A stretch of 64,000 bases of DNA from a virus: IMG/VR virus record IMGVR_UViG_3300045988_113168; one strand, 5' to 3'. This document shows positions 6,931-61,827 of the stretch, in pieces; within the stretch, counting starts at the first letter, position 1; every line of letters begins with the position of its first letter. The notes under the pieces were generated by a model. It was not told the DNA's origin, ran no database searches, and was given only the letters and a program-made list of their open reading frames with translations. The translations under genes were made by a program, and so were the position numbers.

Positions 6931-6945
6931 AATTTGTCTCCTTTT

Positions 6946-6975
6946 CTATAAAAGCGGAGACTTTGCGGTCTCCGC
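6946..6975 (-). terminator. rho-independent terminator after capsid gene
   Basis: minus-sense GCGGAGAC-cgcaaa-GTCTCCGC then TTTTAT, 22 nt after the exon-2 stop. Confidence 0.75.
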
Positions 6976-6997
6976 CCAGATTTGCCTTTGGTAAAAA

Positions 6998-7171
6998 TTA
7001 CTGCAGAACAATCTTAGCAACGCGCTCGATATGATCAATGCTATAACCGAAGGTAAAGTCCTTGACCATCAGATGAATCTTCTCGTTATTGTTGTCGTGA
7101 TCCTCGTAAGTATGAGTCTCACCCTTCATGTCAAGGCGACCGATCTTGCCCGCGATACCATAAATTCTCTT
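6998..7171 (-). CDS. major capsid protein, exon 2 (C-terminal 57 aa)
   Basis: open frame KRIYGIAGKIGRLDMKGETHTYEDHDNNNEKIHLMVKDFTFGYSIDHIERVAKIVLQ* with no start codon or SD; continues exon 1 (..GSLLIPD) in frame after intron removal. Confidence 0.7.
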   Translation of the reverse strand, partial: KRIYGIAGKIGRLDMKGETHTYEDHDNNNEKIHLMVKDFTFGYSIDHIERVAKIVLQ

Positions 7172-16660: not shown

Positions 16661-16703
16661 AAAAACCTGAGTTATGGAGGGAGTAGTAAAGCCACAACTC
16701 AGG
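16661..16703 (-). terminator. terminator after leftward tRNA cluster
   Basis: minus-sense CCTGAGTT-22 nt loop-AACTCAGG then TTTTT. Confidence 0.5.
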
Positions 16704-16723
16704 CTTGCGAAAGGGGAGAATGC

Positions 16724-16799
16724 TGGCACGCCCACTCCGATTCGGACAGAGAACAAATGGTTTTAGAGACCACTGCTTTACCAATTAAGCTACGGGCGC
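16724..16799 (-). tRNA. suppressor tRNA, anticodon CUA (reads UAG), tRNA-Trp-like body, CCA encoded
   Basis: GCGCCCG-UA-GCUU-AAUUGGUA-AAGC-A-GUGGU-CUCUAAA-ACCAU-UUGUU-CUCUG-UCCGAAU-CGGAG-UGGGCGU-G-CCA. The 7-nt loop has U33 and A37, so positions 34-36 = CUA. Confidence 0.75.
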
Positions 16800-16820
16800 A
16801 TAAATATATCAGCATACAGG

Positions 16821-16900
16821 TGGGTGCAGCGGTTGGATTTGAACCAACGAATACACGGCTTATGAGGCCGGTGCCGTAGACCTGACTGGGCAACGCTGCG
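16821..16900 (-). tRNA. tRNA-Met (CAU), possibly initiator-like
   Basis: cloverleaf with loop CUCAUAA, T-loop UUCAAAU, encoded CCA; C1 x A72 mismatch is reminiscent of bacterial initiator tRNA. Confidence 0.65.
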
Positions 16901-17008
16901 TCATATGGTGCCTAAGTGTCTCAAGAAATAGAAAGTCATGTGTACATCATGATTCTAAAACCCAGACTTCGGACTTGCTATATGTCGCGCTCATATAGCC
17001 ATTTTCTT

Positions 17009-17116
17009 CGAGCTTGACAGGATTCGAACCTGCGCTGTATCCACGAATAAGCAATCTCGCTTCGTGCAGATGTCTGCTACCATCCGCTACGTTCAACCTC
17101 TTCGCATTACAAGCTC
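17009..17116 (-). ncRNA. atypical 108-nt tRNA-like RNA
   Basis: perfect 7-bp acceptor GAGCUUG/CAAGCUC, Ser-like D-arm (GCG-AAGAGGUUGAA-CGU) and canonical T-arm GCAGG-UUCGAAU-CCUGU. Two hairpins replace a standard anticodon arm. Confidence 0.4.
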
Positions 17117-17183
17117 ACAATAAAACCTACCTTTTAGCCGGTGGTAGGGAACCGGTATAATATAGGCCCTCCGGGAGAAGGAC

Positions 17184-17275
17184 TGGCGCGGTCTCAGAGA
17201 TTCGAACTCTGGCATCGGATTTACCGACCTAACGGTGTTCAAGACCGTTCTCTTCAACCACTTGAGTAAGACCGC
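17184..17275 (-). tRNA. tRNA-Ser (UGA), class II, CCA encoded
   Basis: GCGGUCU acceptor, loop CUUGAAC, long variable arm, T-loop UUCGAAU. Confidence 0.75.
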
Positions 17276-17387
17276 ACAATAAAAACAAGCATCCATCAAG
17301 CCACCCGAGCTAGTTGAATTGTTCTCGTGTTGATAAAACGCTTGTTTTAAACTTTAATGGTCCGCACTTACGGTGGCGGAACACCAA

Positions 17388-17461
17388 TGCCAGAGGTCGG
17401 GTACGATCCGACAGTCTGCTGATTACAGGTCAGCTGCATTATCCATTTATGCTACCCTGGC
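17388..17461 (-). tRNA. tRNA-Thr (UGU) with unusual loops
   Basis: GCCAGGG acceptor, anticodon loop CCUGUAA (C33), T-loop AUCGUAC (A54/U58 swap). Confidence 0.6.
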
Positions 17462-17489
17462 AAATAACCCGTAGACACTAGCCTACGGG
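17461..17489 (-). terminator. hairpin + U-tract upstream of tRNA-Thr (terminator or processing site)
   Basis: minus-sense CCCGTAG-gctagtgt-CTACGGG then TTATTTG. Confidence 0.45.
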
Positions 17490-20499: not shown

Positions 20500-21249
20500 T
20501 CATAAATCAAACATTTTTCTATTTTGCACGGTTTTCTCAATATTTACGTTTTTAGCGCACTTACGACAGTATTTTTGTCTGCGTCCGGTGCGAGCAACCA
20601 TCTTTCCGCAACAATCACACTTGATGTACTCTTTCCCACAATACTGGCTCCACAGAATACCAGCATTCTCAAAATCGTCCACGAAAATCTCATGAGGAGA
20701 ATCCGGCTCCGCAATCAAAACATGGATGTTCAAGTTGTCAATCTTTTTCAAGCTGGCAAACCCAATAAAGCCAAGATTATGTAACTCACAAATCATCTCG
20801 TTCTGTTTTTTTTCATTCGCGGATACGTTTGCCATCCTGAAAATATCAGCCGTATCTTCCGTAATCCAGTAGTTGCATTTTTCATTAACTGCAATATGAT
20901 ATTTTGCCAGACACAGCATCGTAAACATCAAGCGTTGCATCTGCTTGCCCTCAAGTGCTTGAATCTTCTCTACCTCTGCTTTTGTAATGCACACACCATC
21001 AAGTTCCACCATAGGACGGCCTTTAGCAGAAGCGATTGCTTTATCAATCAGTTCTCTATCCAGAACCTTGTTGTACCCTTCAAAATGACGCAACATATAC
21101 TCGTTGAGCTTTTCTCTTACATCATCCTTTGAGTACCCTTTGTAAAAATAGTACTTCGCAACATAATGCAAAACATGCCCCGCCCTTTTCCAAGGTACAT
21201 CCTTTTCTAGCCACTCTTCAGCGTAAAGAACTTCATTCAATACAATCAT
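20500..21249 (-). CDS. hypothetical protein with C-terminal zinc ribbon
   Basis: 249 aa; second ATG is properly spaced from AAGGAGG; CDCCGK...CRKC. Confidence 0.6.
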   Translation of the reverse strand: MIVLNEVLYAEEWLEKDVPWKRAGHVLHYVAKYYFYKGYSKDDVREKLNEYMLRHFEGYNKVLDRELIDKAIASAKGRPMVELDGVCITKAEVEKIQALEGKQMQRLMFTMLCLAKYHIAVNEKCNYWITEDTADIFRMANVSANEKKQNEMICELHNLGFIGFASLKKIDNLNIHVLIAEPDSPHEIFVDDFENAGILWSQYCGKEYIKCDCCGKMVARTGRRQKYCRKCAKNVNIEKTVQNRKMFDL

Positions 21250-24016
21250 CCGCATCCTCCTTGCTATTCATGTTAATCAACACATCCTTGAAACGCTTGC
21301 CATCATATTCAATATCGCCATTCTCGTCCTGCACAAGAGAATGCACCATACCGTCATGGCGTTCCAATAAGCGTTTAATCAAAGTATCATGAAACAGTTC
21401 CCAGACGATTGCAATACTGGATGCATTCTTCTTACAAAGATCAAGCATAATATCGCAAAGCACATCGTCATTGGAACATTTATCGTGAAGATTACGGAAC
21501 ATGCTTTCCTGATATAGCGCAATTCGTTCCTTGCGGTCTGCGCTGGTTTCTTTATTATTGTTTCCGTTGCCAGAATGGATTGCGTTGCCACGAGCAAATC
21601 TCAAGTAATCCTTAAAAATAGAGCGAATACCATAGTATTGAGAATTAGTGTACTCAATGCCAGACTTGAGCGAGTCGTAATCAAACTTGCGCTTTATCTT
21701 GAGTTCTTCTTCAAAATCTTCCAGCTCGTCCTCAACAGTCCAGCATAGGCGGTTCATGGTACAAGAATTGATTCCGACCGGCATCCGATAGAGGTAATAC
21801 TGGATAACCATTTCATCCACATCGTCCTTGACGGTCTTTTGCATAATCTCATCCAGACCAGCAAACCCATCCCACTTGATGCGCTTGCGAGCTGCGGCCA
21901 CATACTGCTTGTAGTCTCGCATCTGAGAAGGATAAATATAACTCATAAAGTACGGCTTTCGATAAGCACAAATACGAGCCAAGAATTTTTTATCCTCGAT
22001 AGTATCTGGGTTATCACCCTCGCTTGGAACGCAAGCTTTGTTGTCATACCAATATTTTGGCATAGGTACGCAGGAAATTCCCTTTATGCGATCAATCGTG
22101 TCCTGTTGATATTTCTGGCCAGAAATAATACGATATGTAAGCTCTTTATATTCTCTACTTTCTGGCTCAAATTTACTCTGTACATCAAACATCGTTGTAA
22201 TACGATTAGTTACCTTGCCGATATCATCACCAAATCCATTGATATTAGAGTCAATGAAATCCTGCTCGGTTGGAATTTTCTTTTCACCTTTTTTCTGAGC
22301 ACAAAGAATTACAGTCTCATCCCTCCATCTATCAAGGAGGACTCTGTTATCTGTGCTAAAGATGAGATCGCCATCCCAGTCCATTCCGTCGAGTGCTGCA
22401 CATGTGTTATCAAACGCACTTACGATAGCTACAGTCTTCATGTAACGATACCAGTTCTTACATTCGTCACTCGAATTTAAATTTAAGCACCGAATATTCG
22501 CCATCTGACTCATAGGAGCTCTAAAACAAGCCACTCGCTTAACATCTCTATCATTCCAAAAACGGCTGTAAACCTCACCGGCCTTTAACAGTCCAGTGAC
22601 TTCCATTCCAAAGATGGATTGGCAAAGTGCGTATGGATCTCCGCTTGCTACTTGAAAATTCCCTCGTACCTTCACAACACCCGTCTTTGCCTGAGAGATT
22701 CGCTTTTTAATAAAGTACCGAATTCGATTCTGCACATACGGGTCGTTAATCATGTCCGGCTCAATCATGAGAGCCTTAATGTAATCATTCTCAAGAGAGT
22801 TGACATACCCTGCGTCATCTCGCATCCCGCTTCCACGCAAATACAGCAACGCATCACGCCAGTCGCCGCCCATGACACCTTTGATTTCATCCAGAGTCGG
22901 CTTGACCAGTTCTCTAATCTCGTCATTCGTAAGCTGATAGCTTTGAATGAATTGATAATTCAAATTGCGTTCTTCATCAAGTTCCAACTCGCAGGTTTTC
23001 GTTACAGAGAAGTGATAATGGTTTTCCTGACAATTTTCAAAGTAATCCTCACAATTATGGTAACTATCCCATAGCTTTAACATCGACCCTGTAAGAATCA
23101 CTTGAACACGATTAACATCCTTATAGTTCCCCCAAATGTCCTTCACCATATTCTTTTTCGCAATCTTCTTTGCGAACTCACGGAAAGGGAAGGGGAATAG
23201 CATACCTTTACAAAAAGCGTTCCGTACACAGAAACCAGATGCTGTGGATGGCAGCTTTAAATCTTCGCTCCACTGTTGAGCAAGGTCATAGCTAATGAGT
23301 CCAAAACCATCGCTAGCGCACAACTCACAATCATGTTCCATATCCTCTACCATCGTAGGCTCACCGGATGCTCCATCGTCCAGAACGATTACATGGTCTT
23401 TGAAATGAGTGAAACAATCGTCTACGACCAGCACACCGTCTGGATCAGTGACCGGAATGGATGCAGAGCAGGCGAGTGCCCGATATGCTTCCAGCTTTGC
23501 CGGAATAAACTCCATTCCCTTGTTACGGCCATTGTCGATTCGTTTGCGGATCTCATCAACAAGACGGTCGCTCACAAACACAATCGTACTATTCTTGACA
23601 CCACCGGTAGTTCCAACCAAACGACGATATGTAATCCCATTGATTTTGAACCCTTTAGGAGAACATGCCCGGCGGTAATCATTCTTCTTGTCTACCACCA
23701 GACACATATAATCCGGCTTGAACTGAACTGCATCCAACTCAGTATACAATCTCCGAATCTCCCGGCGGTTCTCTAAACAAGATTGTTCATTCCGTAACAT
23801 CTTGATTCTACGCTTGATGCTCCGTGCCTTAGACTCTGCATCCGTAACACCATTCAACTCGTCAATCCATCGTAGAACAGTGCTATCAGCTAACGAGATG
23901 ATCTCGTGGTTTCGTCTGGCTTCATCCAATGGTAGGGTTAAATCCCATTTCGCTTCAACTAGACGCTTCGTATGAATCTTAAAAACAAACTTCTGACAAG
24001 TTTGCTGTTTTGCCAT
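21233..24016 (-). CDS. putative single-subunit RNA polymerase (YonO / RdRP-like two-barrel family)
   Basis: 927 aa; ALDGMDWDGDLIFS contains the DxDGD metal-binding signature of two-barrel RNAPs and cellular RdRPs. It is preceded by VACFRAPMSQMANIR (the R.P element seen in RdRP alignments). Confidence 0.55.
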   Translation of the reverse strand: MAKQQTCQKFVFKIHTKRLVEAKWDLTLPLDEARRNHEIISLADSTVLRWIDELNGVTDAESKARSIKRRIKMLRNEQSCLENRREIRRLYTELDAVQFKPDYMCLVVDKKNDYRRACSPKGFKINGITYRRLVGTTGGVKNSTIVFVSDRLVDEIRKRIDNGRNKGMEFIPAKLEAYRALACSASIPVTDPDGVLVVDDCFTHFKDHVIVLDDGASGEPTMVEDMEHDCELCASDGFGLISYDLAQQWSEDLKLPSTASGFCVRNAFCKGMLFPFPFREFAKKIAKKNMVKDIWGNYKDVNRVQVILTGSMLKLWDSYHNCEDYFENCQENHYHFSVTKTCELELDEERNLNYQFIQSYQLTNDEIRELVKPTLDEIKGVMGGDWRDALLYLRGSGMRDDAGYVNSLENDYIKALMIEPDMINDPYVQNRIRYFIKKRISQAKTGVVKVRGNFQVASGDPYALCQSIFGMEVTGLLKAGEVYSRFWNDRDVKRVACFRAPMSQMANIRCLNLNSSDECKNWYRYMKTVAIVSAFDNTCAALDGMDWDGDLIFSTDNRVLLDRWRDETVILCAQKKGEKKIPTEQDFIDSNINGFGDDIGKVTNRITTMFDVQSKFEPESREYKELTYRIISGQKYQQDTIDRIKGISCVPMPKYWYDNKACVPSEGDNPDTIEDKKFLARICAYRKPYFMSYIYPSQMRDYKQYVAAARKRIKWDGFAGLDEIMQKTVKDDVDEMVIQYYLYRMPVGINSCTMNRLCWTVEDELEDFEEELKIKRKFDYDSLKSGIEYTNSQYYGIRSIFKDYLRFARGNAIHSGNGNNNKETSADRKERIALYQESMFRNLHDKCSNDDVLCDIMLDLCKKNASSIAIVWELFHDTLIKRLLERHDGMVHSLVQDENGDIEYDGKRFKDVLINMNSKEDADDCIE

Positions 24017-28998: not shown

Positions 28999-29240
28999 GA
29001 ATGTTTCTAGCTTCTATTATAATAAGGTATGTTTCTTGGAGTGTCATCTACTGTAGTCTTTCCAGACAGTGACCGTCAGCTTACTTAGCTCAAGTCGCTA
29101 TTACACATTATTCTCCATGAAGAACATCTAGGTACTCTTGTGTGTTCTGTGTAAGCTGCCAGAGGCTACAATCATGCTCCTTGGAAGTCTCTGAAGTTTC
29201 TGAGAGTGCTGCTTAGATGCCAGATCAGTCCATTTATGGC

Positions 29241-29720
29241 GATAGGGGAGTACAGATAGGTACAAATAGGTATTTTATACTCCGAAGAATGGTCATTTTC
29301 GGTACATTTATGATACACATCGGGAAAACCCGCATAAATCCTAGACTTTTAAGCCTTTATTGGGTCAAAAAGGAACAAAAACATGGATAAAAAGGTACAA
29401 ATAAAAAGAAAAACTAGCCAAAATATAACGCAAATACGTTAAATTCTAGCTAATTACCGAATAAGCTACCGATTGAAAAATAGCGATTTTAAGCCATTTT
29501 TAGCTATTTTTAATGGAAAAGTGAATGATTTGTGGGTATATGTAGGAGATGGTATAGGGGTATATTTTGGGATGTTTTTGTCAGGGAGAAGTGTACCCCG
29601 GATAGGAGAGTAAAAGTGTCAAGGAATTATTTATTAACAGACTAGGAAGGTTAAAAAGTAGTAGTGTTGGTTGCCAATAGGAGAAGTATTGATGGAATTA
29701 TTGGAATTATTGGGAATTAA
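29241..29720. repeat. iteron-like short repeats in A-rich non-coding DNA
   Basis: RATAGG(R) words at about 29242, 29256, 29267, 29553, 29601 and 29677; AGGTACAAATA twice (29258, 29393); tandem GGAATTATT x3 at 29694-29720. Confidence 0.5.
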
Positions 29721-30138
29721 AGATAAAATAATATGTAAAATATTGCGATAAATCGTTATTAAATTGTTATTTCTTGAGGATGAATAAGAAAGATGTACTG
29801 GGGTTTCGGCCTGCTGCCGGGAACGTCCAAAAAATGAAAAGTATGCCCCATAGGTGCGAGTGCTGGAAATGCTCAAAATACGGCACTCGACAGGGCAAGG
29901 ACAAGGCGGGATTTTTGTCTGTATTGCTATCTGATAAAGTATCAACAGGTGCAGATAATGGTTAAAGAATTTTAATTGCTTGATAACGAACAAAAATGTT
30001 CGATACAAAACAAAATGTTATGTTGATTTAAAATCAACTTTAAATTATATATTGTTTCTTTTCAATCAACCATCAATTTTCCCTTATAAGGTAATTATAA
30101 TATAAAGCAAAAATCCATTTGTTGCACACGCAACATTT

Positions 30139-30180
30139 ACGGTGAAACCGCTTGACTTTCTACGGTGAAACCGTTATACT
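30139..30180 (+). promoter_or_regulatory. sigma70-type promoter P1 with two palindromic operators
   Basis: TTGACT(30152)-17 nt-TATACT(30175); ACGGTGAAACCG(T) at 30139 and 30162 (CGGT-N3-ACCG palindrome). Confidence 0.65.
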
Positions 30181-30262
30181 ACAGTCAAGCTCAAGGGCAA
30201 CACCGAAAAGCGGAAAACATGATGGTTCTGAAACACCGGAAAATTTCAGTTTCCACTTTTTG

Positions 30263-30325
30263 ACGTTTCACCGTTTGAGCGGTTCAAAAATAGGGCTTGA
30301 CAAAACGGTTAAACCGTGATACAAT
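30263..30325 (+). promoter_or_regulatory. sigma70-type promoter P2 with operators
   Basis: TTGACA(30297)-17 nt-TACAAT(30320); ACGGTTAAACCGT in the spacer, ACGTTTCACCGT at 30263. Confidence 0.65.
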
Positions 30326-30733
30326 ACAGTCAAGCTCAAGGGCGAAAGCCCAAAAGCAAAACCCAAAACCCAATAGCACATTGACAAGTCAAGATTTCTG
30401 ATTTTAACTTGTTTGGTTTAACTCTTGTTTAATTACAAGAAAAATCATGCAACAAAAGTCAAGATTAGAAGTCTACCATATCGGCAAAACTTTCGGGTTT
30501 TGTTGGTACGGTGCGACAAGTCACAATTTGCACCTTGAAAAACACGTTAAAGTAGAACGTTGTGAAACGCCGAAATTCCGTCAAATTGGCAAACAAGATG
30601 TTTTAGACGCAAGTCTTTCACTGGTCCCTAGGTAGACTATACCTAAGAGGATCAGCAAGGATGGTCAACAGTATGCACCTTGTATCAAAAGCGTACTGTA
30701 CCAGAACACTAAACAGAAAAGAGGTGTATTCAA

Positions 30734-36962: not shown

Positions 36963-36995
36963 GGGAATATTCCTTATCAAAATTGAGGTGATAAT

Positions 36996-37241
36996 ATGAT
37001 GCGTAATTGTTGGATTGTCACATACAAAGATTATCACGGAGAATATAGCTAGTGTGTTTTTTATAAAAAAGAGGATGCAGAAAAATGTATCAAAGAGGAT
37101 TTTGAAAACGCGTTGCATGACTTAAAAAAAGATGGGTGGTATGACCCGTACACGGTTGATGGAACGTATTGGAAGACAATATTTATTCCGAATACCGATA
37201 TTGATTATGAATGGAATCTTAAGATTTCAACCATTAGATGA
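36996..37241 (+). CDS. hypothetical protein with in-frame TAG (codon 19, 37050-37052)
   Basis: SD TTGAGGTGATAAT-ATG is identical in style to neighbouring genes. Coding-like sequence on both sides of the TAG (..YKDYHGEYS-x-CVFYKKEDAEKCIKEDFENAL..). It fills an otherwise empty 250-nt gap. Confidence 0.6.
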
Positions 37242-43728: not shown

Positions 43729-43974
43729 ATGTGGACTTTTAATAGGATTTATTTTCGGGAAAGTTGTATTTTGCTTGTTGAGGAGGACGGAGAAAAGAGT
43801 GCGATCACAACAAGTGTATATGACTTAATAAGAATGTACAATAACGGTGAGAGTGAATGTCCTAGTGATAACGCAAAGGTTATTTATTGCTCGATTTTTA
43901 ATGTAAAAATGAAATGTAAAACGTTCAAAGATTTTATGGATATGCTTGAGAAAATTGTAGCTGATTGTTGTTGA
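43729..43974 (+). CDS. hypothetical protein
   Basis: 81 aa from MWTFNRI. Confidence 0.55.
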   Translation: MWTFNRIYFRESCILLVEEDGEKSAITTSVYDLIRMYNNGESECPSDNAKVIYCSIFNVKMKCKTFKDFMDMLEKIVADCC

Positions 43975-43984
43975 GGTTTTAGAT

Positions 43985-44242
43985 ATGAAAAGTTATTTAT
44001 TTGATATGAATAATGTATTTTGTATTACGACAGAAGCAAGCAAAAAGATTGTTGTTTTTGATGAAGATTTTACAAGCAAGGATGTAGTTCTTTATTATTT
44101 GTGTAAACGAATTGTTGACCTCGAAAATGCTGGTTATTTAGTTTGCGGGGTCACAGAATTAAATCCAGATGGTTCTCATCCGAAGGTTGCGTTTCGTAAT
44201 ACGAAAGAATATAAGAGAGCTAAAAAGGAGTATAAATTGTGA
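43985..44242 (+). CDS. hypothetical protein
   Basis: 85 aa. Confidence 0.6.
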   Translation: MKSYLFDMNNVFCITTEASKKIVVFDEDFTSKDVVLYYLCKRIVDLENAGYLVCGVTELNPDGSHPKVAFRNTKEYKRAKKEYKL

Positions 44243-51525: not shown

Positions 51526-51774
51526 ATGAATATAGTTGGACATTCCGTTTTAGAACGAGCAGAAAGAGAGCTCCGGGGCCAGTTTTCTGATACTGATGTT
51601 GAATTTTTCCGCAGGGGAGATGGCATAGACGAACCAATTCACTTGGTCGTTTCGTTGCCCGGAATCACAAAAGAACCAGATGAGACAATTTTGATTGGTG
51701 AAGCCTTAATTGTTGCCGGTAAGGCAGCAAAAGAATTTAAGTACAACGGATATTTTGTCGATTACAATGTTTGA
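51526..51774 (+). CDS. hypothetical protein
   Basis: 82 aa, SD AAGGAGG. Confidence 0.6.
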   Translation: MNIVGHSVLERAERELRGQFSDTDVEFFRRGDGIDEPIHLVVSLPGITKEPDETILIGEALIVAGKAAKEFKYNGYFVDYNV

Positions 51775-51803
51775 TAAAAACTAAGATTTAGAAGGAGATA
51801 ATA

Positions 51804-51956
51804 ATGGGCGTATTAGTAGACCGGGAAACGGCAAAGAAAGTCGAAAGAATCTTTGAACATCCAAACGAAATTTACTCTGTATATCTCAAATCGTCTGACG
51901 AAGCAGTCTGGCTCCAAGGAAAAGTTGAACTATACAAATATTTAAGAAGCTTGTAA
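51804..51956 (+). CDS. hypothetical protein
   Basis: 50 aa, SD GAAGGAGA. Confidence 0.45.
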   Translation: MGVLVDRETAKKVERIFEHPNEIYSVYLKSSDEAVWLQGKVELYKYLRSL

Positions 51957-51983: not shown

Positions 51984-52181
51984 ATGAAAAAGTTCGTTGC
52001 TCTTTTTGAAGGTTGGAATGATAAACACGACCATGAATGTATGTGCTATGTTATTGATGTGGATGATGACTTTGAAAGCATTTTGAGTGTTGAAGAACAG
52101 GCAGAGAAGATGGCTCGAAACGAGTATCCTCATCTGAAAAGTTTTGAGACGCTTTACATCAAAGAACTGCTTAACAGATAA
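51984..52181 (+). CDS. hypothetical protein
   Basis: 65 aa, SD GGAGGAA. Confidence 0.55.
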   Translation: MKKFVALFEGWNDKHDHECMCYVIDVDDDFESILSVEEQAEKMARNEYPHLKSFETLYIKELLNR

Positions 52182-52200
52182 AACTAATCTTTTATAGGAG

Positions 52201-52779
52201 ATGACTTCGGTGATACTAACATTAGGTATCGACAATTTTGATAAAGACAAATTTGAAATTCCTCATAATTCAGAAAAATCACAGTTCTTGAATAAGCCGG
52301 CAGGAGGTTTGTGGGGTTCAACTTTTACTCCAAATTATAATTATGTAAGTGATTGGGCGATGTTTGTTTTTGAAAACGATTTTGCCACTTCTATATACCG
52401 CAATGGAATCGCATACGAGCTAAATTCTAACGCCAGAGTTTTAGACGTTGATACTCGTTATGATTTCGTCAAACTGTTGAAGAACTTTGGGTGCCTTTGG
52501 CTTCCTGGATGTGCTTTAATTTGCATTCAAAACAAACGATTTATAGATTGGGACAAGATTGTTAAGCTTTATGACGCAGTTCATTTTAGTCGAGAAGCGA
52601 TTATATCTTGTCGTTTTATAATGAATGAGGAACGATTGGATAATGGCAAAGTGTTTACTGTGTCCAATTTGTACTCGTATGATTGCGAGAGTTGGGTAGT
52701 GTGTAACCCCGATGTGATTGATATGAAATCGATTCGCAAGATCGAATTAGATAGTGAAGGACGATTGGTGAAAAGCTAA
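52201..52779 (+). CDS. hypothetical protein
   Basis: 192 aa; start uncertain (ATG 52201 abuts the SD, GTG 52210 is better spaced). Confidence 0.6.
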   Translation: MTSVILTLGIDNFDKDKFEIPHNSEKSQFLNKPAGGLWGSTFTPNYNYVSDWAMFVFENDFATSIYRNGIAYELNSNARVLDVDTRYDFVKLLKNFGCLWLPGCALICIQNKRFIDWDKIVKLYDAVHFSREAIISCRFIMNEERLDNGKVFTVSNLYSYDCESWVVCNPDVIDMKSIRKIELDSEGRLVKS

Positions 52780-54080: not shown

Positions 54081-54407
54081 ATGAGTGAGAGAAAGGTTCT
54101 GAAGATTATACGGGTTGATGATTTTTTAAAGTACATAAGAAAAAAGCGAGTGTGGGTTTGCTTTGTTTGCAATGGTGTGGATGTTCATATGGTTTGTAAC
54201 AAAATGGCCGACATTAGCGCAGAGACGCATGGTGTTGTCAAAGGTGTTGGCTTTTTCGGGAACGAGAATCATGTTGAACTGCAGCAAGAATGTCACGAAG
54301 TAAGAATGGTGGAGCTTAGACCTACCAGCAAAGAAAAAGCCTATGAGATGATCTTCAGCAGTACCAATGTGATTGTGTCAGAGAATCCTGAGTTGTACGG
54401 GCACTAA
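54081..54407 (+). CDS. hypothetical protein
   Basis: 108 aa from MSERKVL. Confidence 0.55.
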   Translation: MSERKVLKIIRVDDFLKYIRKKRVWVCFVCNGVDVHMVCNKMADISAETHGVVKGVGFFGNENHVELQQECHEVRMVELRPTSKEKAYEMIFSSTNVIVSENPELYGH

Positions 54408-54425: not shown

Positions 54426-54454
54426 TTGACTTCTGCAAAGGTATCCTGTATAAT
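54426..54454 (+). promoter_or_regulatory. consensus sigma70 promoter overlapping reversed motif copy E
   Basis: TTGACT-17 nt-TATAAT; drives the MazF-like gene. Confidence 0.7.
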
Positions 54455-54462
54455 ATAGCTAT
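54441..54462 (-). repeat. 22-nt motif copy E (reverse orientation)
   Basis: GTATCCTGTATAATATAGCTAT; inverted partner is copy F, 1.47 kb away. Confidence 0.8.
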
Positions 54463-54497
54463 GGAACGGAGCTACACTATTATAGAGGAGAAAGACT

Positions 54498-54917
54498 ATG
54501 GACAACAATATTGACCCGAAGGTCGGAGAGGTTTGGTTGGTTGATCTATCTAATGCGACGGGCCATCAGCAGCGCGGTATTCGACCGTTTGTTGTGACAA
54601 GCAACAACAAGCGCAACTTCTTCAGTCCCACAATCAAAGGGAATCCGTTGTCTTCCAGAATATACAAGCGTTCTCCGGTTCATGTCCTGCTCTCAAAGGA
54701 AGATTGCGATTTTCTGGAAGTTGACAGTATCGTTCTCTGCGAAGAGACTGATACGCTTAACAAAGGGCAGTTCATCAAAAAGCTTGGTGTCTTGTCTGAG
54801 CGTCATATGAATATGATCGCAATGGCCAGATGCAAGGATGAACCGTTTTTGCTCGCAGCATTCCTAAGCGGCGTACAACATACTATGGAATTTCAGAATT
54901 TTGCCGCATTTGCTTGA
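54498..54917 (+). CDS. mazF: MazF/EndoA (PemK)-family endoribonuclease toxin
   Basis: 139 aa; GEVWLVDLSNATGHQQRGIRPFVV.SNN..N.FSPT ... DSIVLCEETDTLNKGQFIKKLG.LSERHM aligns with B. subtilis EndoA as I recall it. Confidence 0.75.
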   Translation: MDNNIDPKVGEVWLVDLSNATGHQQRGIRPFVVTSNNKRNFFSPTIKGNPLSSRIYKRSPVHVLLSKEDCDFLEVDSIVLCEETDTLNKGQFIKKLGVLSERHMNMIAMARCKDEPFLLAAFLSGVQHTMEFQNFAAFA

Positions 54918-56031: not shown

Positions 56032-58242
56032 ATGAGAACTTTGCTTCTTTTCCGTGGAGCACCAGGATGCGGGAAGTCCACCTATATTAAAGAGCATGAT
56101 CTGGAAAAGTATACGCTTAGTGCCGATACGATTCGCCTTATGTGTCAGGGTGGTCAGGAAACCCCGGCTGGCACAATGGAAATCTCTCCCCAGAACGATG
56201 ATGTTGTCTGGGATATGCTCTTTAAACTGTTGGAGGTTCGGATGTCTCACGGTGAATTTACCGTGATTGATGCAACGAACTCTAAAACTGTCGAAATCAA
56301 TCGCTATAAGAATCTTGCCAAGCAGTACAGGTACAGAATGTACATCATCGACATGACTGATTTGCCCATTAGTGAGTGTAAACGGCGTAATTCGCTTCGC
56401 ACTCTTCTGAAGAGAGTCCCGGATGCTGCCATTGATAAGATGTATGCACGATTCGCAACGCAGAAGATTCCGTCTGGTGTGACTGTACTCTCGTCAGATG
56501 TAAATATCCTTGAGAAATTGAACTATGTTCCGCAGGACTTTAACAACTGGAGCAAAATTCATATCATCGGTGATGTGCATGGGTGTTACAGTTGCTTGAA
56601 AGAGTATCTTGGCGACCTGAAGGATGATGAACTGTACATTTTTGTTGGCGATTATCTGGATCGTGGAATTGAAAATGTAGAGATGTTCAAGTTCCTTTGT
56701 GATGTTGTAGACAATAATCGGAAGAATGTGATCCTTTTGGAAGGAAATCACGAGCGTTGGCTGAACAAGTGGGGGCATGATGAACCGGTTCAGAGTGAAG
56801 AATTTGCAAACTACACTCGTCCGCAGCTCTTTAAAGCCGGTATTGACAAGAACACTGCTCGTAAGATCTATTCCAGAGTCGGCCAATGTGCCTACTTTGA
56901 GTATGATGGGAAACGGTATTTTGTGAGCCACGGTGGTTTGAGTTATCTGCCTTATTTTCTTCCTTTTGTATCTGCTGATCAGATGATTAAAGGCGTAGGT
57001 CGCTATCCTGATATGCTAACCGTGGCTGAGTCTTGGGAAAAATCGATGCCGGATAGCTGCATTCAGATCTTCGGTCATCGAAATGTGCAGGATGTTCCCA
57101 TTGATATGGGGCATCGGTGCTACAACCTCGAAGGAAAAATCGAGTTTGGTGGATATCTCCGTTGCGTGGAACTTGAACACGGTCAGTCAATCAAATGTGT
57201 AGAAACCAAGAACGATGTGTTCCGAAAAGAGGAGCCAAAGACTGAAACTGCCGTTGAAATGAAAACTGAGTTCGATAACGCAGAACTTGTTAGTAAGATG
57301 CGCAAAAGCAAATATGTGTTTGAGAAGCGATTCGGAGATATTTCTTCTTTCAACTTCTCTCGTGAAGCATTTTACAAGAAGCACTGGGATGAGGTTTCTA
57401 CCAAAGCAAGGGGATTGTTCATTAACACAAAGACGAATAAGATTGTAGCTCGAAGCTATGATAAGTTCTTTGCGGTTGATGAGCGGAATGAAACGAGAAT
57501 TGGAAACCTACAGAACACTTTGAAGTTCCCGGTGACTGCATATCTAAAAGAGAATGGATTTCTCGGTATCATTTCGTATGATGCAGAACAGGATGGTCTG
57601 TTCATTGCAAGTAAATCTACTCCTGAAGGGCCTTTTGCAGATATGTTCCGAAAGATTTTCATGGATACGACTTCTGATGAAGACCGTAAGAATCTAAAGG
57701 AAGTTGCAAAAGAGAATGGTTCCATCATTTTTGAGGTAATTGATCCTGTAAATGATGCTCATATCATCGAATACAAGACACCACATATTGTTTTGCTGGA
57801 TATTATTGCGAATGATATGAACTTCAGTGTGATGGATTACGATGATCTGAAGCGTGTTGCTGAAAAGTGTCATTTGCAGATTAAGGAGAAGGTTAAGATC
57901 TTTGAGAGCTGGAGTGAATTCTATCCTTGGTATGAAGAAGTCATGAATGAGAATTATCTGTACCATGGCATCGAGCATATTGAAGGTTTTGTTTTGAGAG
58001 ATAACAACAATTTTATGTTTAAGCTGAAGCTTCCTTATTATAAGCACTGGAAGTTCTTGCGTGGTGTTATGCAGAGCGTACAGAAGCGTGGCTATTACGA
58101 AAACACTGCCAAGCTGTTTACTGCTGAAGATAATTTATTCTATGGTTGGATGCGTGAACAACGAGAGAAAGAAAAAGAGTCTTTCTGCAAGAAGGGTATT
58201 ATTCAGTTACGGAATGAATTCTATGAGAATCGGCACGAATAA
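56032..58242 (+). CDS. trifunctional RNA-repair enzyme: polynucleotide kinase + metallophosphatase + ligase-like adenylyltransferase (Pnkp-like)
   Basis: 736 aa; P-loop GAPGCGKST, phosphoesterase motifs GDVHGC / GDYLDRG / GNHE, and a C-terminal KENG (KxNG nucleotidyltransferase motif I). Same domain order as Clostridium thermocellum Pnkp. Confidence 0.7.
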   Translation: MRTLLLFRGAPGCGKSTYIKEHDLEKYTLSADTIRLMCQGGQETPAGTMEISPQNDDVVWDMLFKLLEVRMSHGEFTVIDATNSKTVEINRYKNLAKQYRYRMYIIDMTDLPISECKRRNSLRTLLKRVPDAAIDKMYARFATQKIPSGVTVLSSDVNILEKLNYVPQDFNNWSKIHIIGDVHGCYSCLKEYLGDLKDDELYIFVGDYLDRGIENVEMFKFLCDVVDNNRKNVILLEGNHERWLNKWGHDEPVQSEEFANYTRPQLFKAGIDKNTARKIYSRVGQCAYFEYDGKRYFVSHGGLSYLPYFLPFVSADQMIKGVGRYPDMLTVAESWEKSMPDSCIQIFGHRNVQDVPIDMGHRCYNLEGKIEFGGYLRCVELEHGQSIKCVETKNDVFRKEEPKTETAVEMKTEFDNAELVSKMRKSKYVFEKRFGDISSFNFSREAFYKKHWDEVSTKARGLFINTKTNKIVARSYDKFFAVDERNETRIGNLQNTLKFPVTAYLKENGFLGIISYDAEQDGLFIASKSTPEGPFADMFRKIFMDTTSDEDRKNLKEVAKENGSIIFEVIDPVNDAHIIEYKTPHIVLLDIIANDMNFSVMDYDDLKRVAEKCHLQIKEKVKIFESWSEFYPWYEEVMNENYLYHGIEHIEGFVLRDNNNFMFKLKLPYYKHWKFLRGVMQSVQKRGYYENTAKLFTAEDNLFYGWMREQREKEKESFCKKGIIQLRNEFYENRHE

Positions 58243-58308: not shown

Positions 58309-58387
58309 GGCCCTATGGCGGAACGAGGCATACGCAACAAGCTCAAACCTTGTAAAATTCTCAGTTCAAATCTGAGTAGGGCTACCA
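58309..58387 (+). tRNA. tRNA with anticodon CAA but class I (short variable arm) architecture, CCA encoded
   Basis: GGCCCUA acceptor, loop CUCAAAC, T-arm CUCAG-UUCAAAU-CUGAG, A73. Confidence 0.5.
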
Positions 58388-58466
58388 ACCCATTTGCAGA
58401 TGGGTAAGTGCTAGAATATTGGCAAATCGGAAAGACGGTTGACTGCTGGACAGACAGCTTTGATAT

Positions 58467-58551
58467 GTCACTATGGCGAAATTGGCGAGACGCATCGGAC
58501 TTAAGTTCCGACGGTAGCGATACCATCTGGGTTCGACTCCCAGTAGTGACA
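58467..58551 (+). tRNA. tRNA-Leu (UAA), class II
   Basis: GUCACUA/UAGUGAC acceptor, loop CUUAAGU, long variable arm, T-loop UUCGACU. Confidence 0.75.
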
Positions 58552-58558
58552 CTGATAT

Positions 58559-58634
58559 CCGGGTGTAGCTCAGTTGGAAGAGCGCGTGCTTTGGGAGCAT
58601 GAGGCCGCAGGATCGTGACCTGTCACTCGGACCA
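58559..58634 (+). tRNA. tRNA-Pro (UGG), CCA encoded
   Basis: loop UUUGGGA; T-loop AUCGUGA (A54/U58). Confidence 0.7.
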
Positions 58635-58666
58635 GCCCGAAAGGGCATGTAGAATTTTTCATTCAC

Positions 58667-58722
58667 ATTATTCCCAGCTCTCTGGAAACAGAGCAGTGTG
58701 GCGTAGCAAGCTGGGTAGATTA
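58667..58722 (+). repeat. 56-nt structured tRNA leader element, copy 1
   Basis: ATTATTCCCAGCTC..; 7-bp stem CCCAGCT/AGCTGGG enclosing CTCTG-GAAA-CAGAG; abuts tRNA-Gln. Confidence 0.7.
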
Positions 58723-58794
58723 CGAGGATTAGCCAAGCGGATAAGGCAGTGGAATTTGACTCCACGACCGCAGGTTCGATTCCTGTATCCTCGA
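58723..58794 (+). tRNA. tRNA-Gln (UUG)
   Basis: CGAGGAU/AUCCUCG acceptor, loop AUUUGAC, T-loop UUCGAUU. Confidence 0.7.
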
Positions 58795-58801
58795 TTTATA
58801 T

Positions 58802-58886
58802 GCGGGTATGGTGTAACTGGCAGCCACGCGGATTTTAGGTGTCCGTGCCGAAAGGCGTGAGGGATCGTGCCCCTCTACCCGTACCA
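58802..58886 (+). tRNA. tRNA-Leu (UAG), class II, CCA encoded
   Basis: loop UUUAGGU, variable arm UGCCGAAAGGCGU, T-loop AUCGUGC. Confidence 0.7.
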
Positions 58887-58933
58887 CGGTCATAGAATGG
58901 TTGCGTACCGTTTGTTGATCTCCTTTGACCACT

Positions 58934-58989
58934 ATTATTCCCAGCTCGCTCGTAAGAGTGCAGTAGTGCTTTGTAAGCTGAGTGATTGT
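58934..58989 (+). repeat. 56-nt structured tRNA leader element, copy 2
   Basis: ATTATTCCCAGCTCGCTCGTAAGAGTGCAGTAGTG..TAAGCTGAGTGATTGT; same architecture (GNRA hairpin CTC-GTAA-GAG). Confidence 0.7.
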
Positions 58990-59061
58990 GCAGTTATGGT
59001 GTAGTTGGTAAGCACGCTTGCTGATGAAGTAAGAGGATGAGTTCAAAACTCATTGACTGCA
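58990..59061 (+). ncRNA. tRNA-like gene with aberrant anticodon loop
   Basis: good acceptor, D and T arms (AUGAG-UUCAAAA-CUCAU), but the loop is UGAUGAA (G33) and the variable region is 3 nt; anticodon not assignable by eye. Confidence 0.4.
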
Positions 59062-59065
59062 AAAT

Positions 59066-59258
59066 ATGAAATCAGTTGTTCTAGCTCGTTCGTGGATTGG
59101 CCGTACATTGGCGACCGGAAAGACGTCATACCGGTAAAGGACGTCAAGCCAGACAAGAAGAGAAATAAGGTGTAAGCCGACTAGCTATCGGATAAATACT
59201 CTTCGGTTCGCCAGAAAACTAGAATGTAAAACGAATGGTTGGCTGTTTCTGATTTCAT
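59066..59258 (+). ncRNA. unclassified ~193-nt structured RNA inside the tRNA array
   Basis: closed by a 10-bp stem ATGAAATCAG/CTGATTTCAT, then TTCTAG/CTAGAA. Internal GGCGACCGGA/TCTTCGG(T)TCGCC, GACGTC/GACGTC and CCGA/TCGG helices. No ORF. Confidence 0.45.
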
Positions 59259-59264
59259 TTATAT

Positions 59265-59340
59265 GCGACTGTAGTTCAATTGGCAGAGCGTCAGATTTCC
59301 AATCTGAATGTTGCGGGATCGTGCCCCGTCAGTCGCTCCA
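59265..59340 (+). tRNA. tRNA-Gly (UCC), CCA encoded
   Basis: GCGACUG/CAGUCGC acceptor, loop UUUCCAA, T-loop AUCGUGC. Confidence 0.7.
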
Positions 59341-59471
59341 CACGCAGCCCCTTACGCTGCACCGGTTGCTCAGAGCCGAAAGAAACCTATATGTTACGAC
59401 ATGGTTGCCAAGAGTGATCATATTGGAACGCGACGTAGCTTGGATAGTGAGAATTAAATTCTGAGGTATAC

Positions 59472-59540
59472 TGCTGGATAGCTTAATGGTAAAAGCGCTC
59501 GGAAACGCCGAGAGATAAGGTTCGATTCCTTCACTGGCAT
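59472..59540 (+). ncRNA. 69-nt tRNA-like RNA with 5-nt anticodon-position loop
   Basis: D-arm GCUU-AAUGGUAA-AAGC and T-loop UUCGAUU are present, but the anticodon arm is CUCGG-AAACG-CCGAG. Confidence 0.35.
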
Positions 59541-59567
59541 CACGCCGATGAAAGTCGGCGTTTGCAT

Positions 59568-59644
59568 GGGATAGTAGCTCAGTTGGTCAGAGCTGGCGGC
59601 TCATAACCGCTTGGTCGCGAGTTCAAATCTTGCCTGTCCCACCA
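59568..59644 (+). tRNA. tRNA-Met (CAU) (elongator or Ile2-type), CCA encoded
   Basis: GGGAUAG acceptor, loop CUCAUAA, T-loop UUCAAAU. Confidence 0.7.
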
Positions 59645-61620: not shown

Positions 61621-61827
61621 ATGAACAGCAAAATTTCTATCAATGCAACCATCGACCCCGGTTCTTTGAGTATTCCGGCAAGTCCTATCTTCCAACAGGA
61701 AAAGAATACATATTTTTGTCCGTTTTGTGTGACGAAGCTGTAGAAGTTCGAGCGTGAATGTTCTGATTGTCATCGCAAGATGGATTGGAGTAGGTTCACT
61801 GAAAAGAAGGAGGAGGTGTTCACTTGA
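61621..61827 (+). CDS. zinc-ribbon protein with in-frame TAG (codon 41, 61741-61743)
   Basis: reading through the TAG completes a CPFC-x10-CSDC zinc ribbon. The extended frame ends in a TGA that overlaps the TTG start of the next gene (TTGA) behind AAGGAGGAGG. Confidence 0.65.

What the first reader, a model, noticed from the sequence alone, without database searches (positions are those of the whole stretch)
36996..37241. Gene with in-frame TAG #1
An ATG with the same SD context as its neighbours (TTGAGGTGATAAT-ATG) opens a frame that hits TAG at 37050-37052 after 18 codons. The frame then continues for 62 more codons of ordinary-looking protein sequence to a TGA. Without read-through, about 190 nt of this densely packed operon would be non-coding.
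Basis: seen in the sequence. Interest (0 to 1): 0.7.

Follow-up and report, generated by a model that had tools for sequence, protein, structure and literature searches.

The report
Phage gene with translated amber codon
A small gene of an uncultured gut phage carries an in-frame TAG that the phage most likely reads as an amino acid with its own amber-suppressor tRNA, and in its relatives TAG stands for tryptophan, not the glutamine reported for other recoded phages.

Summary
ATG 36996 opens 18 codons, then TAG at 37050-52, then 62 codons to TGA at 37239-41.

Both halves show coding signal. Seven close orthologues are uninterrupted 80-81 aa proteins with AAG (Lys) at the TAG position. A confident AlphaFold model shows one small alpha/beta domain spanning the TAG.

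The window is part of a roughly 130-kb SPbeta-like phage of gut Clostridia.
- It encodes a tRNA with anticodon CUA (16724-16799, minus strand).
- None of its 100 confident genes ends in TAG.
- A second gene is split by TAG (61621-61827, between two CxxC zinc motifs).

In 140 related loci, in-frame TAG sits in essential genes, including the large terminase, almost always where relatives have TGG (Trp). It co-occurs with CUA tRNAs, which are paralogues of the family's tRNA-Trp(CCA).

So read-through is supported, and the inserted residue is most likely Trp, not Gln as in code 15. The focal TAG is a young, lineage-private Lys-to-TAG change in an accessory gene of unknown function. A partly suppressed nonsense mutation cannot be excluded.

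Stop-codon recoding in gut phages is known. A sparse, polymorphic TAG-to-Trp version is a new variant.

The parts
36985..36990 (+). Shine-Dalgarno GAGGTG, 5 nt upstream of the ATG
   Evidence: Read in the sequence. The same TTGAGGTGATAA context precedes the next gene at 37282.
36996..37049 (+). Codons 1-18 of the gene (MMRNCWIVTYKDYHGEYS); strand beta-1 of the domain
   Evidence: Coding score is positive only in this frame. The sequence is conserved in orthologues. The AF2 model places beta-1 at residues 3-11.
37050..37052 (+). In-frame TAG, codon 19; AAG (Lys) in all close orthologues; a variable polar position in the wider family
   Evidence: The TAG is shared by L005 and L006.
37053..37238 (+). 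Codons 20-81: the rest of the same alpha/beta domain
   Evidence: AF2 gives pLDDT 95 with beta-2 17-22, helix 25-45, beta 52-55, 59-63 and 70-80. Small phage proteins match the fold over its full length, best TM 0.80.
37239..37241 (+). TGA terminator of the full-length gene
   Evidence: Orthologues stop at the same place.
16724..16799 (-). tRNA with anticodon CUA (amber suppressor): canonical cloverleaf, G73, encoded CCA, a paralogue of the family's tRNA-Trp(CCA)
   Evidence: ARAGORN. Rfam tRNA model, 56 bits. It is 78% identical to the family tRNA-Trp(CCA), 55% to the window's tRNA-Gln and 53% to the family's tRNA-Lys. The identical tRNA occurs in L012 and L029, which have TAG at conserved Trp codons.
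61621..61827 (+). Second gene with an in-frame TAG (codon 41, 61741-61743), lying between CPFC and CSDC of a zinc ribbon. Its TGA overlaps the next gene's start.
   Evidence: Sixty orthologues have GAA or GAG (Glu) there. Weak zinc-ribbon Pfam hits.

Best explanation
The gene is an intact 81-codon gene, and its TAG is decoded as an amino acid by the phage's own amber-suppressor tRNA(CUA) (16724-16799, minus strand). That tRNA is charged by a host aminoacyl-tRNA synthetase, most likely TrpRS.

Shown:
- The gene family is a single ~80-aa domain that spans the TAG.
- The phage carries a CUA tRNA and never uses TAG to end a gene in this window.
- Related phages with CUA tRNAs of the same lineage (L012 and L029 carry the identical one) have TAG inside essential genes at conserved Trp positions.

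Inferred:
- The tRNA is expressed and aminoacylated, and competes successfully with release factor 1 at this codon. Part of the ribosomes may still stop, giving an 18-aa peptide.
- The residue inserted is Trp, so the product would carry K19W.
- The AAG-to-TAG change was tolerated because, in this phage, it acts as a missense change at a variable, polar position, not as a nonsense mutation.
For: (1) Orthologues are full length with AAG at codon 19. dN/dS is 0.1-0.4 on both sides of the TAG.

(2) One fold spans the TAG. AF2 on a 25-sequence alignment gives pLDDT 95 and pTM 0.81, with beta-1 (3-11) before the TAG and beta-2 (17-22) containing it. The fold matches ~80-aa phage proteins over its whole length.

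(3) Position 19 is variable in the wider family (K, S, T, D, Q, A, E...).

(4) There is a tRNA(CUA) in the window.

(5) Terminators of 100 confident genes: 54 TAA, 46 TGA, 0 TAG. Yet TAG makes up 10.3% of off-frame stop triplets (P about 2e-5).

(6) A second TAG-split gene in the window needs read-through to keep its second CxxC.

(7) Family stop usage: in 80 TerL loci, 989 TAA, 712 TGA, 1 probable TAG stop, and 107 genes with an internal TAG. In 60 further loci, 522, 146, 4 and 44. Outgroup prophages in Clostridia genomes end 13-20% of long ORFs in TAG and have no CUA tRNA in the fetched loci.

(8) TAG replaces TGG at 10 recurrent sites. Two of them are TerL W54 and W61, next to the Walker A motif and conserved in the outgroup. 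TGG is only 7.4% of TAG's one-step neighbour codons (P about 1e-8).

(9) In-frame TAG goes with a CUA tRNA in the TerL cassette. The raw table is 47/2 against 5/22 (Fisher P = 2.5e-12). Correcting by hand the three loci my regex missed (L048, L054, L074) gives 49/3 against 3/21.

(10) All five CUA tRNA types share the acceptor stem GCGCCYR/YGGGCGU and G73 with the family's tRNA-Trp(CCA), which occupies the same cassette slot in other members.

(11) The TAG persisted across strains that differ by 0.2-0.6%.
Against: - The focal TAG stands where orthologues have Lys, not Trp. K19 and Y20 are invariant in the seven close orthologues, and the window lineage changed both (K19 to TAG, Y20C).
- Both other TAG-bearing assemblies have a 1-nt homopolymer deletion inside this gene, which would fit decay. 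But the gene holds 3 of the 5-6 runs of 6 nt or longer in the compared spans, and at least L006 is low coverage (3.3x).
- The tRNA sits in the structural-gene block on the other strand. Its timing relative to this gene is unknown.
- In E. coli, a tRNA-Trp with anticodon CUA is charged by GlnRS, not TrpRS (PMC2965240). Ancestry alone therefore does not fix the amino acid.
- A few family TAGs align with CAG.
- There is no expression or peptide evidence.
Confidence: 0.75

Rival explanations
1. Plain nonsense mutation. A recent AAG-to-TAG change killed a dispensable accessory gene. Translation stops at codon 18, and the downstream 189 nt are a young pseudogene remnant that has not yet diverged.
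For: The TAG is private to one lineage and replaces an invariant Lys, with an adjacent Y20C change. L005 and L006 each carry a frameshifting 1-nt deletion in this gene and no other indel in 2.8 and 1.6 kb. The window's other TAG also replaces a strictly conserved residue, Glu in 60 of 60 orthologues. The gene is absent from most family members: only 3 IMG/VR contigs have it.
Against: The phage carries a CUA tRNA. The identical tRNA is needed by relatives L012 and L029, which have TAG at conserved Trp codons in genes of the TerL-flanking block, so a TAG here cannot be a clean stop. My gene map shows no unexplained ORF-free gap that would point to a TAA- or TGA-disrupted gene, although such mutations should arise about as often or more; I did not test this formally (the screen could not discriminate). 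The indels fall in homopolymers, of which this gene holds half of those in the compared spans. The TAG survived 0.2-0.6% strain divergence with no substitution in the gene.
Confidence: 0.17
2. Read-through happens, but the residue inserted is glutamine, as in genetic code 15 of other recoded gut phages. A host GlnRS would mischarge the U35-containing tRNA.
For: The E. coli amber suppressor derived from tRNA-Trp is charged by GlnRS (PMC2965240). Phage TAG recoding has so far been assigned to Gln. Three to four family TAG sites align with CAG. The protein collection's gene caller wrote Q at this codon (P0005).
Against: Ten recurrent sites, about 100 genome-sites, align with TGG, against 3-4 mostly singleton CAG sites, although CAG codons outnumber TGG 366 to 247. 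The Trp residues replaced are conserved next to the TerL Walker A motif, also in the outgroup. The CUA tRNAs are 55% identical to the phage's tRNA-Gln and 78% to its family's tRNA-Trp.
Confidence: 0.12
3. The downstream part is expressed on its own by re-initiation at TTG 37113 (42 aa), or the locus makes two separate peptides.
For: There is an in-frame TTG at 37113, with AGAGGA about 14 nt upstream.
Against: All homologues are single ~80-aa proteins. The model is one domain whose beta-1, beta-2 and most of the helix would be missing from a 42-aa product.
Confidence: 0.03
4. Assembly or sequencing error, or pyrrolysine insertion.
For: ARAGORN labels the CUA tRNA 'Pyl'.
Against: The same TAG is present in three assemblies. 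ARAGORN gives that label to any CUA anticodon. This tRNA is a canonical cloverleaf that scores 56 bits on the general tRNA model and resembles tRNA-Trp. No pyl genes or methylamine methyltransferases were found among 63 window proteins.
Confidence: 0.01

Closest known systems
TAG-recoded gut phages using genetic code 15 (crAss-like, Lak and others; Borges et al. preprint 10.1101/2021.08.26.457843; proteomic validation PMC9523058)
   Same: An uncultured gut phage of a host presumed to use the standard code. It has in-frame TAG in genes with full-length homologues, a phage-encoded tRNA(CUA), no phage-encoded aminoacyl-tRNA synthetase in the part seen, and related members with and without recoding.
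   Different: TAG aligns with Trp, not Gln. Borges et al. state they saw only TAG-to-Gln and TGA-to-Trp. Recoding is very sparse: 2 TAGs in about 100 genes here and 1-3 per 22 kb in relatives. Coding density rises only from 0.860 to 0.866, far below the 5-10% gain used to detect recoded phages. TAG terminators are almost absent even in family members without a CUA tRNA.
phAss-1 / proposed Phassvirus, a 136-kb gut phage with 41 TAG-containing ORFs and three tRNA-Sup-CTA genes (PMC10607447)
   Same: Similar genome size, human gut origin, TAG in TerL, and suppressor tRNA genes without a cognate synthetase.
   Different: There TAG is read as Gln, both by alignment and by tRNAscan isotype, and 28% of ORFs are affected. 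I found no sequence similarity to this window in the GenBank phage collection, but I did not check that the phAss-1 relatives' records are in that collection.
Genetic code 32 of Balanophora/Thonningia plastids (TAG = Trp)
   Same: The same reassignment, TAG to Trp, with TAG absent from gene ends (PMC10268348).
   Different: That code sits in a tiny, extremely AT-rich organelle genome where the change is genome-wide and fixed. Here it is in a virus, carried on a mobile tRNA cassette, sparse and polymorphic.
tRNA-Sup(CUA) next to theta ribozymes in gut phages (PMC10879173)
   Same: That paper's isotype predictor gave a Trp isotype to 19.4% of 180 phage tRNA-Sup(CUA), noted as 'rarely reported code 32'. 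This is an earlier hint at the same thing.
   Different: I found no ribozyme next to this tRNA in Rfam, but I do not know whether Rfam holds a theta-ribozyme model. The tRNA encodes its own CCA. That paper gives no codon-level evidence for Trp and concludes code 15.
E. coli amber suppressor derived from tRNA-Trp (anticodon CCA to CUA)
   Same: A tRNA-Trp body with a single anticodon change that reads UAG.
   Different: In E. coli it loses TrpRS recognition and is charged by GlnRS (PMC2965240). The alignments here argue that Trp identity is kept. Whether the host even has a GlnRS was not determined.
SPbeta-like temperate phages of Firmicutes
   Same: A genome of about 125-137 kb, a YonO-like RdRP-family polymerase (PF05183), integrases, a long block of small genes, and a distant TerL match (26-29% identity).
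   Different: No stop-codon recoding is known to me for cultured SPbeta-like phages (from my own knowledge, not checked here).

Membership tests
Stop-codon-recoded phage (TAG read as sense) | In-frame TAG in genes whose homologues are uninterrupted | tested here: met
   Focal gene. Zinc-ribbon gene. TerL and other genes in relatives.
Stop-codon-recoded phage (TAG read as sense) | TAG avoided as a terminator | tested here: met
   0 of 100 genes in the window. 5 probable TAG stops among about 2,370 family gene calls. 13-20% of long ORFs end in TAG in outgroup loci.
Stop-codon-recoded phage (TAG read as sense) | Phage-encoded suppressor tRNA with anticodon CUA | tested here: met
   16724-16799, minus strand. 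Five sequence types in the family.
Stop-codon-recoded phage (TAG read as sense) | Coding density rises by more than 5-10% under the alternative code (the detection criterion of Borges et al.) | tested here: not met
   0.8595 against 0.8658. The recoding is too sparse for that criterion.
Genetic code 15 (TAG = Gln) | TAG aligns with Gln in homologues | tested here: not met
   10 recurrent sites align with TGG, 3-4 mostly singleton sites with CAG, and the focal site with AAG.
Genetic code 15 (TAG = Gln) | The suppressor tRNA resembles tRNA-Gln | tested here: not met
   55% identity to the window's tRNA-Gln(UUG), against 78% to the family's tRNA-Trp(CCA).
Code-32-like reassignment (TAG = Trp) | TAG aligns with conserved Trp in homologues | tested here: met
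   Met at family level. Not met at the focal codon itself, which is Lys in orthologues.
Code-32-like reassignment (TAG = Trp) | A tRNA-Trp-type tRNA with anticodon CUA | tested here: met
   Shared acceptor stem, G73, D arm and anticodon stem-loop with the family's tRNA-Trp(CCA), and the same cassette slot.
Code-32-like reassignment (TAG = Trp) | Trp shown in the protein at TAG positions | not testable with these tools
   Needs mass spectrometry or an aminoacylation assay.
Pyrrolysine decoding | tRNA-Pyl architecture and pylS/pylBCD genes | tested here: not met
   Canonical cloverleaf, 56 bits on RF00005. No such Pfam families among 63 window proteins. The rest of the phage genome and the host were not seen.
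Pseudogene by nonsense mutation | Further disabling mutations or relaxed constraint | tested here: inconclusive
   None in the window copy. One homopolymer deletion each in L005 and L006, not significant given where the runs lie. dN/dS against orthologues is 0.22-0.31, but most of that divergence predates the TAG.

The most novel reading that the evidence does not exclude
This window belongs to a family of about 130-kb SPbeta-like phages of gut Clostridia that is caught partway through a TAG-to-tryptophan code change. TAG has been almost eliminated as a terminator across the family. A swappable tRNA cassette upstream of the terminase carries either tRNA-Trp(CCA) or one of at least five diverged tRNA(CUA) paralogues. 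TAG has begun to replace TGG at conserved Trp codons in essential genes, and new X-to-TAG changes such as the focal Lys-to-TAG appear as young variants. This would be the first codon-level case of TAG = Trp in a virus or in any bacterial system. It would also be a natural series of intermediates for testing how a stop codon is captured.
Probability: 0.55. Interest if true: 0.78.

Novelty: new variant of a known kind. Interest (0 to 1): 0.6.

Why it matters
For annotation: the phage needs TAG treated as sense. Otherwise this gene, the zinc-ribbon gene and, in relatives, the terminase are called as fragments. Translating TAG as Gln (table 15), as current pipelines do and as the protein collection did here, would probably put the wrong residue at conserved Trp positions. 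Recoding this sparse is invisible to detectors based on coding density.

For biology: reported phage recoding has been TAG to Gln and TGA to Trp. This was explained by GlnRS and TrpRS tolerating the changed anticodon. A Trp-charged CUA tRNA in Clostridia phages would show that a second synthetase-anticodon combination is usable.

The family also has sister genomes carrying CCA or CUA tRNAs, and TGG or TAG at the same codon. That is a ready-made system for testing codon capture against ambiguous-intermediate models. It is also a possible source of Trp-type amber suppressors.

Tried and rejected
- DNA and protein searches of the GenBank phage collection with the locus found nothing. TerL finds only 22-29% identity matches to Bacillus and Clostridium phages.
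- Pfam and PHROGs give no family for the 81-aa protein. The PDB fold search has no significant hit. BFVD hits are all uncharacterised small phage proteins, so I propose no function.
- The first AF2 run, with 3 sequences, was unusable (pLDDT 51). It was replaced by the 25-sequence run.
- Other candidate in-frame TAGs near N termini (54426-54917, 52144-52779, 6229-7038, 29142-29390, 43946-44242, 51771-51956) were dropped. For two I read the sequence: 54426 is a promoter (TTGACT-17 nt-TATAAT) followed by SD and ATG at 54498, and 52144 overlaps the previous gene's end, with SD and GTG at 52210. For the others my gene model chose a start after the TAG, and they were not examined further.
- I looked for a theta or HDV-like ribozyme next to the CUA tRNA. 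Rfam finds none.
- I looked for release-factor or tRNA-synthetase genes. There are none among 63 window proteins. Only half of the genome is in the window.
- I suspected that relatives with TAG but no ARAGORN-called CUA tRNA lacked a suppressor. A pattern scan showed a fifth CUA tRNA type that ARAGORN misses and Rfam confirms. The second tRNA cluster never holds a CUA tRNA.
- I treated the L005 and L006 indels as a possible sign of decay. The test was not significant once homopolymer positions were counted.
- A screen for TAA- or TGA-interrupted genes as a control could not separate them from adjacent same-frame genes.
- Promoter and terminator scans around the gene and the tRNA cassette showed nothing above chance that bears on the question.

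Full report
**1. The observation**

The sequence is as described. The SD GAGGTG (36985-90) precedes ATG 36996. Eighteen codons follow, then TAG at 37050-52, then 62 codons to TGA at 37239-41.

A codon-usage log-odds score trained on the window's long ORFs is positive only in this frame, on both sides of the TAG. The values match those of neighbouring genes.

The first in-frame start after the TAG is a TTG 20 codons later. The surrounding block is tightly packed, with gaps mostly under 40 nt.

**2. Homologues**

A search of 5.8 billion proteins found five relatives. Three of them (72-78% identity) are full-length 80-81 aa proteins with Lys at position 19.

DNA from their contigs shows AAG at that codon in L001, L002, L004, L007 and L008, and in three IMG/VR contigs.

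Two near-identical assemblies from other samples carry the same TAG: L005 (99.8% identity) and L006 (99.4%). So the TAG is real and has persisted across slightly diverged strains.

The collection's gene caller had translated the L005 copy with Q at the TAG (P0005), meaning it had chosen table 15.

Each of L005 and L006 also has one homopolymer deletion inside the gene. The gene contains half of the long homopolymers in the compared spans, so this is not significant. It remains an open caveat.

dN/dS among orthologues is 0.1-0.4 in both the N-terminal 18 codons and the C-terminal 62.

A profile search of 1.8 billion representatives found 50 relatives, mostly ~80 aa and matched end to end. In their alignment, position 19 is variable and polar.

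AlphaFold2 on 25 of these gave a confident single domain (pLDDT 95): beta 3-11, beta 17-22, helix 25-45, beta 52-55, 59-63 and 70-80. The two halves around the TAG therefore belong to one fold.

The fold matches only uncharacterised small phage proteins. Pfam and PHROGs find nothing. The function is unknown.

**3. What the window is**

The window contains a large terminase, virion proteins, a YonO-like RdRP-family polymerase, two integrases, a Pnkp/RNA-ligase protein, a MazF toxin, anti-repressors and 12-13 tRNAs.

The TerL has 230 relatives in IMG/VR on contigs of 125-137 kb. It matches cultured phages, SPbeta-like and other Firmicutes phages, only distantly.

Relatives with 59-71% TerL identity lie inside Clostridia genomes, for example a 1.36-Mb contig of Anaerovorax sp. 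IOR16.

The window is therefore part of a temperate, SPbeta-like phage of gut Clostridia.

**4. The means of read-through**

ARAGORN finds a tRNA with anticodon CUA at 16724-16799 on the minus strand. It is a canonical cloverleaf (56 bits on the Rfam tRNA model) with G73 and an encoded CCA.

With my own gene model, 100 confident genes end in TAA (54) or TGA (46), and none ends in TAG. Yet TAG makes up 10.3% of off-frame stop triplets inside genes (P about 2e-5).

Only two good genes contain an in-frame TAG. One is the focal gene. The other is 61621-61827, where the TAG lies between CPFC and CSDC of a zinc ribbon and the gene's TGA overlaps the next start. Sixty orthologues have GAA or GAG at that codon.

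Other apparent N-terminal TAG extensions were dropped. Two were shown to be spurious by reading the sequence. For the rest, the gene model chose a start after the TAG.

**5. The family shows what TAG means**

In 80 TerL-centred loci and 60 loci around the zinc-ribbon gene, gene calls gave 1,511 TAA, 858 TGA and 5 probable TAG terminators. 151 genes had an internal TAG.

Outgroup loci in bacterial genomes end 13-20% of long ORFs in TAG and hold no CUA tRNA.

In-frame TAGs lie in TerL (codons 54, 61, 548) and in several other conserved genes around it.

At the ten sites shared by several genomes, other members have TGG. Together these sites account for about 100 genome-sites.

TerL W54 and W61 sit just before the Walker A motif (CSRNFGKS) and are conserved in the Clostridia outgroup.

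TGG is only 7.4% of the codons one step from TAG (P about 1e-8). Against CAG alone the excess is still significant (P = 0.02).

Sites aligned with CAG, TAT, AAG or GAR are nearly all singletons. If TAG means Trp, this is the expected pattern: synonymous TGG-to-TAG changes persist and spread, and non-synonymous X-to-TAG changes are young and rare.

**6. The tRNAs**

The cassette upstream of TerL is variable. One slot holds tRNA-Trp(CCA), tRNA-Lys, tRNA-Tyr or a tRNA(CUA), and a second CUA type follows tRNA-Met, as in the window.

Five CUA types exist. ARAGORN misses one of them, which was recovered by a pattern scan and confirmed with Rfam.

They differ by 25-35% from one another. All keep the acceptor stem and G73 of the family's tRNA-Trp(CCA).

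The window's copy is 78% identical to that tRNA-Trp, 55% to the window's tRNA-Gln and 53% to the family's tRNA-Lys.

In-frame TAG at sense-aligned sites goes with a CUA tRNA in the same locus. The raw table is 47/2 against 5/22 (P = 2.5e-12). It becomes 49/3 against 3/21 after correcting three loci my regex missed. The test is not phylogenetically corrected.

The tRNA identical to the window's occurs in L012 and L029, which have TAG at conserved Trp codons.

**7. Interpretation**

In this phage TAG is effectively a sense codon, so the AAG-to-TAG change behaves as a missense change, probably K19W. It falls at a variable position of an accessory protein.

What is shown:
- one domain spans the TAG;
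- orthologues carry a sense codon there;
- the phage has a CUA tRNA;
- TAG is not used as a terminator;
- in relatives TAG stands at Trp codons of essential genes.

What is inferred:
- the tRNA is expressed and charged;
- how efficiently it competes with RF1;
- that Trp is the residue inserted.

E. coli precedent cautions that a tRNA-Trp with anticodon CUA is charged by GlnRS (PMC2965240). Trp therefore rests on the alignments, not on tRNA ancestry.

The main rival is a partly suppressed or unsuppressed nonsense mutation in a dispensable gene. Several points keep it alive:
- the TAG is private to one lineage;
- it replaces a Lys invariant among close orthologues;
- Y20C lies next to it;
- the two sister assemblies have frameshifts.

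**8. Comparison with what is known**

Stop-codon recoding with suppressor tRNAs in gut phages is established. Borges et al. state that they saw only TAG to Gln and TGA to Trp. phAss-1 is TAG to Gln. Annotation tools offer tables 15 and 4.

TAG = Trp is known from Balanophora plastids as code 32.

One paper noted that 19% of 180 phage tRNA-Sup(CUA) get a Trp isotype, but concluded code 15.

Full-text searches for TAG or UAG read as tryptophan in phages found nothing else.

The window fails the usual detection criterion, because coding density rises only from 0.860 to 0.866.

I therefore file this as a new variant of a known kind: sparse, polymorphic, Trp-type amber recoding.

Noticed in passing
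window 61621-61827 (+), TAG at 61741-61743: A second gene with an in-frame TAG: a 68-codon zinc-ribbon protein whose two CxxC pairs lie on either side of the TAG. All 60 IMG/VR orthologues have GAA or GAG (Glu) there, including two that are 99% identical, so this TAG is private to the window.
   Followed up: yes
window 8417-8759 (-) and 7181-8296 (-): A group I intron (RF00028, 75 bits) followed by an HNH homing-endonuclease ORF (phrog_559, E = 1e-87). It appears to interrupt the structural-module gene that starts at 9580 on the minus strand. The short ORF 6998-7129 may be the downstream exon.
   Followed up: partly
window 21233-24016 (-): A 927-aa protein that hits PF05183 (the eukaryotic-type RdRP family, E = 6e-14). 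From memory, this is the family of the SPbeta YonO single-subunit RNA polymerase. It suggests late genes are transcribed by a phage polymerase.
   Followed up: partly
window 56032-58242 (+) and 58309-59644 (+): A 736-aa polynucleotide kinase-phosphatase/RNA ligase fusion (phrog_8238, PF09511) sits directly upstream of an 8-9 tRNA cluster. It looks like a tRNA-repair module next to the phage's own tRNAs. This cluster never contains a CUA tRNA in 60 relatives.
   Followed up: partly
window 58989-59062 (+) and 59472-59540 (+); loci L121, L140, L152, L153: Odd tRNAs. ARAGORN calls a tRNA-His with anticodon AUG. Rfam alone finds a tRNA-like element with a non-standard anticodon loop. In some relatives the last slot of this cluster reads UAU or AUA instead of CAU.
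   Followed up: no
loci L009-L088, about 1.5-2.7 kb upstream of TerL (window 16700-17470): The tRNA cassette upstream of the terminase is a hot spot of replacement. The same slot holds tRNA-Trp(CCA), Lys(UUU), Tyr(GUA) or a CUA suppressor in genomes whose TerL is 95-100% identical. One of the five suppressor types is missed by ARAGORN.
   Followed up: yes
family loci without any CUA tRNA (e.g. L009, L011, L014, L033, L040, L068, L073, L083-85): Members that carry tRNA-Trp(CCA), or no Trp-type tRNA at all, still have almost no TAG terminators in 22 kb. TAG avoidance therefore extends beyond the genomes that currently hold a suppressor. L019 and L020 have a TAG at a Trp codon but no CUA tRNA in the fetched locus.
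   Followed up: partly
window 54428-54917 (+): A MazF/PemK-type toxin gene (PF02452, E = 4e-19) lies behind a near-consensus sigma-70 promoter (TTGACT, 17 nt, TATAAT). I did not identify an antitoxin; the upstream neighbour 54081-54407 was not examined.
   Followed up: no
window 29266-30733: A 1.47-kb stretch without a convincing ORF lies between the minus-strand and plus-strand gene blocks, at the switch in GC skew. It may be a regulatory or origin region.
   Followed up: no
L005 (A7 to A6 at window 37124) and L006 (T6 to T5 at window 37057): Each of the two other TAG-bearing assemblies has a single 1-nt homopolymer deletion, and both fall inside the focal gene. In L006 the deletion puts the downstream part in frame with a GTG that overlaps the TAG. 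That explains why a 62-aa product (P0003) was called there.
   Followed up: partly
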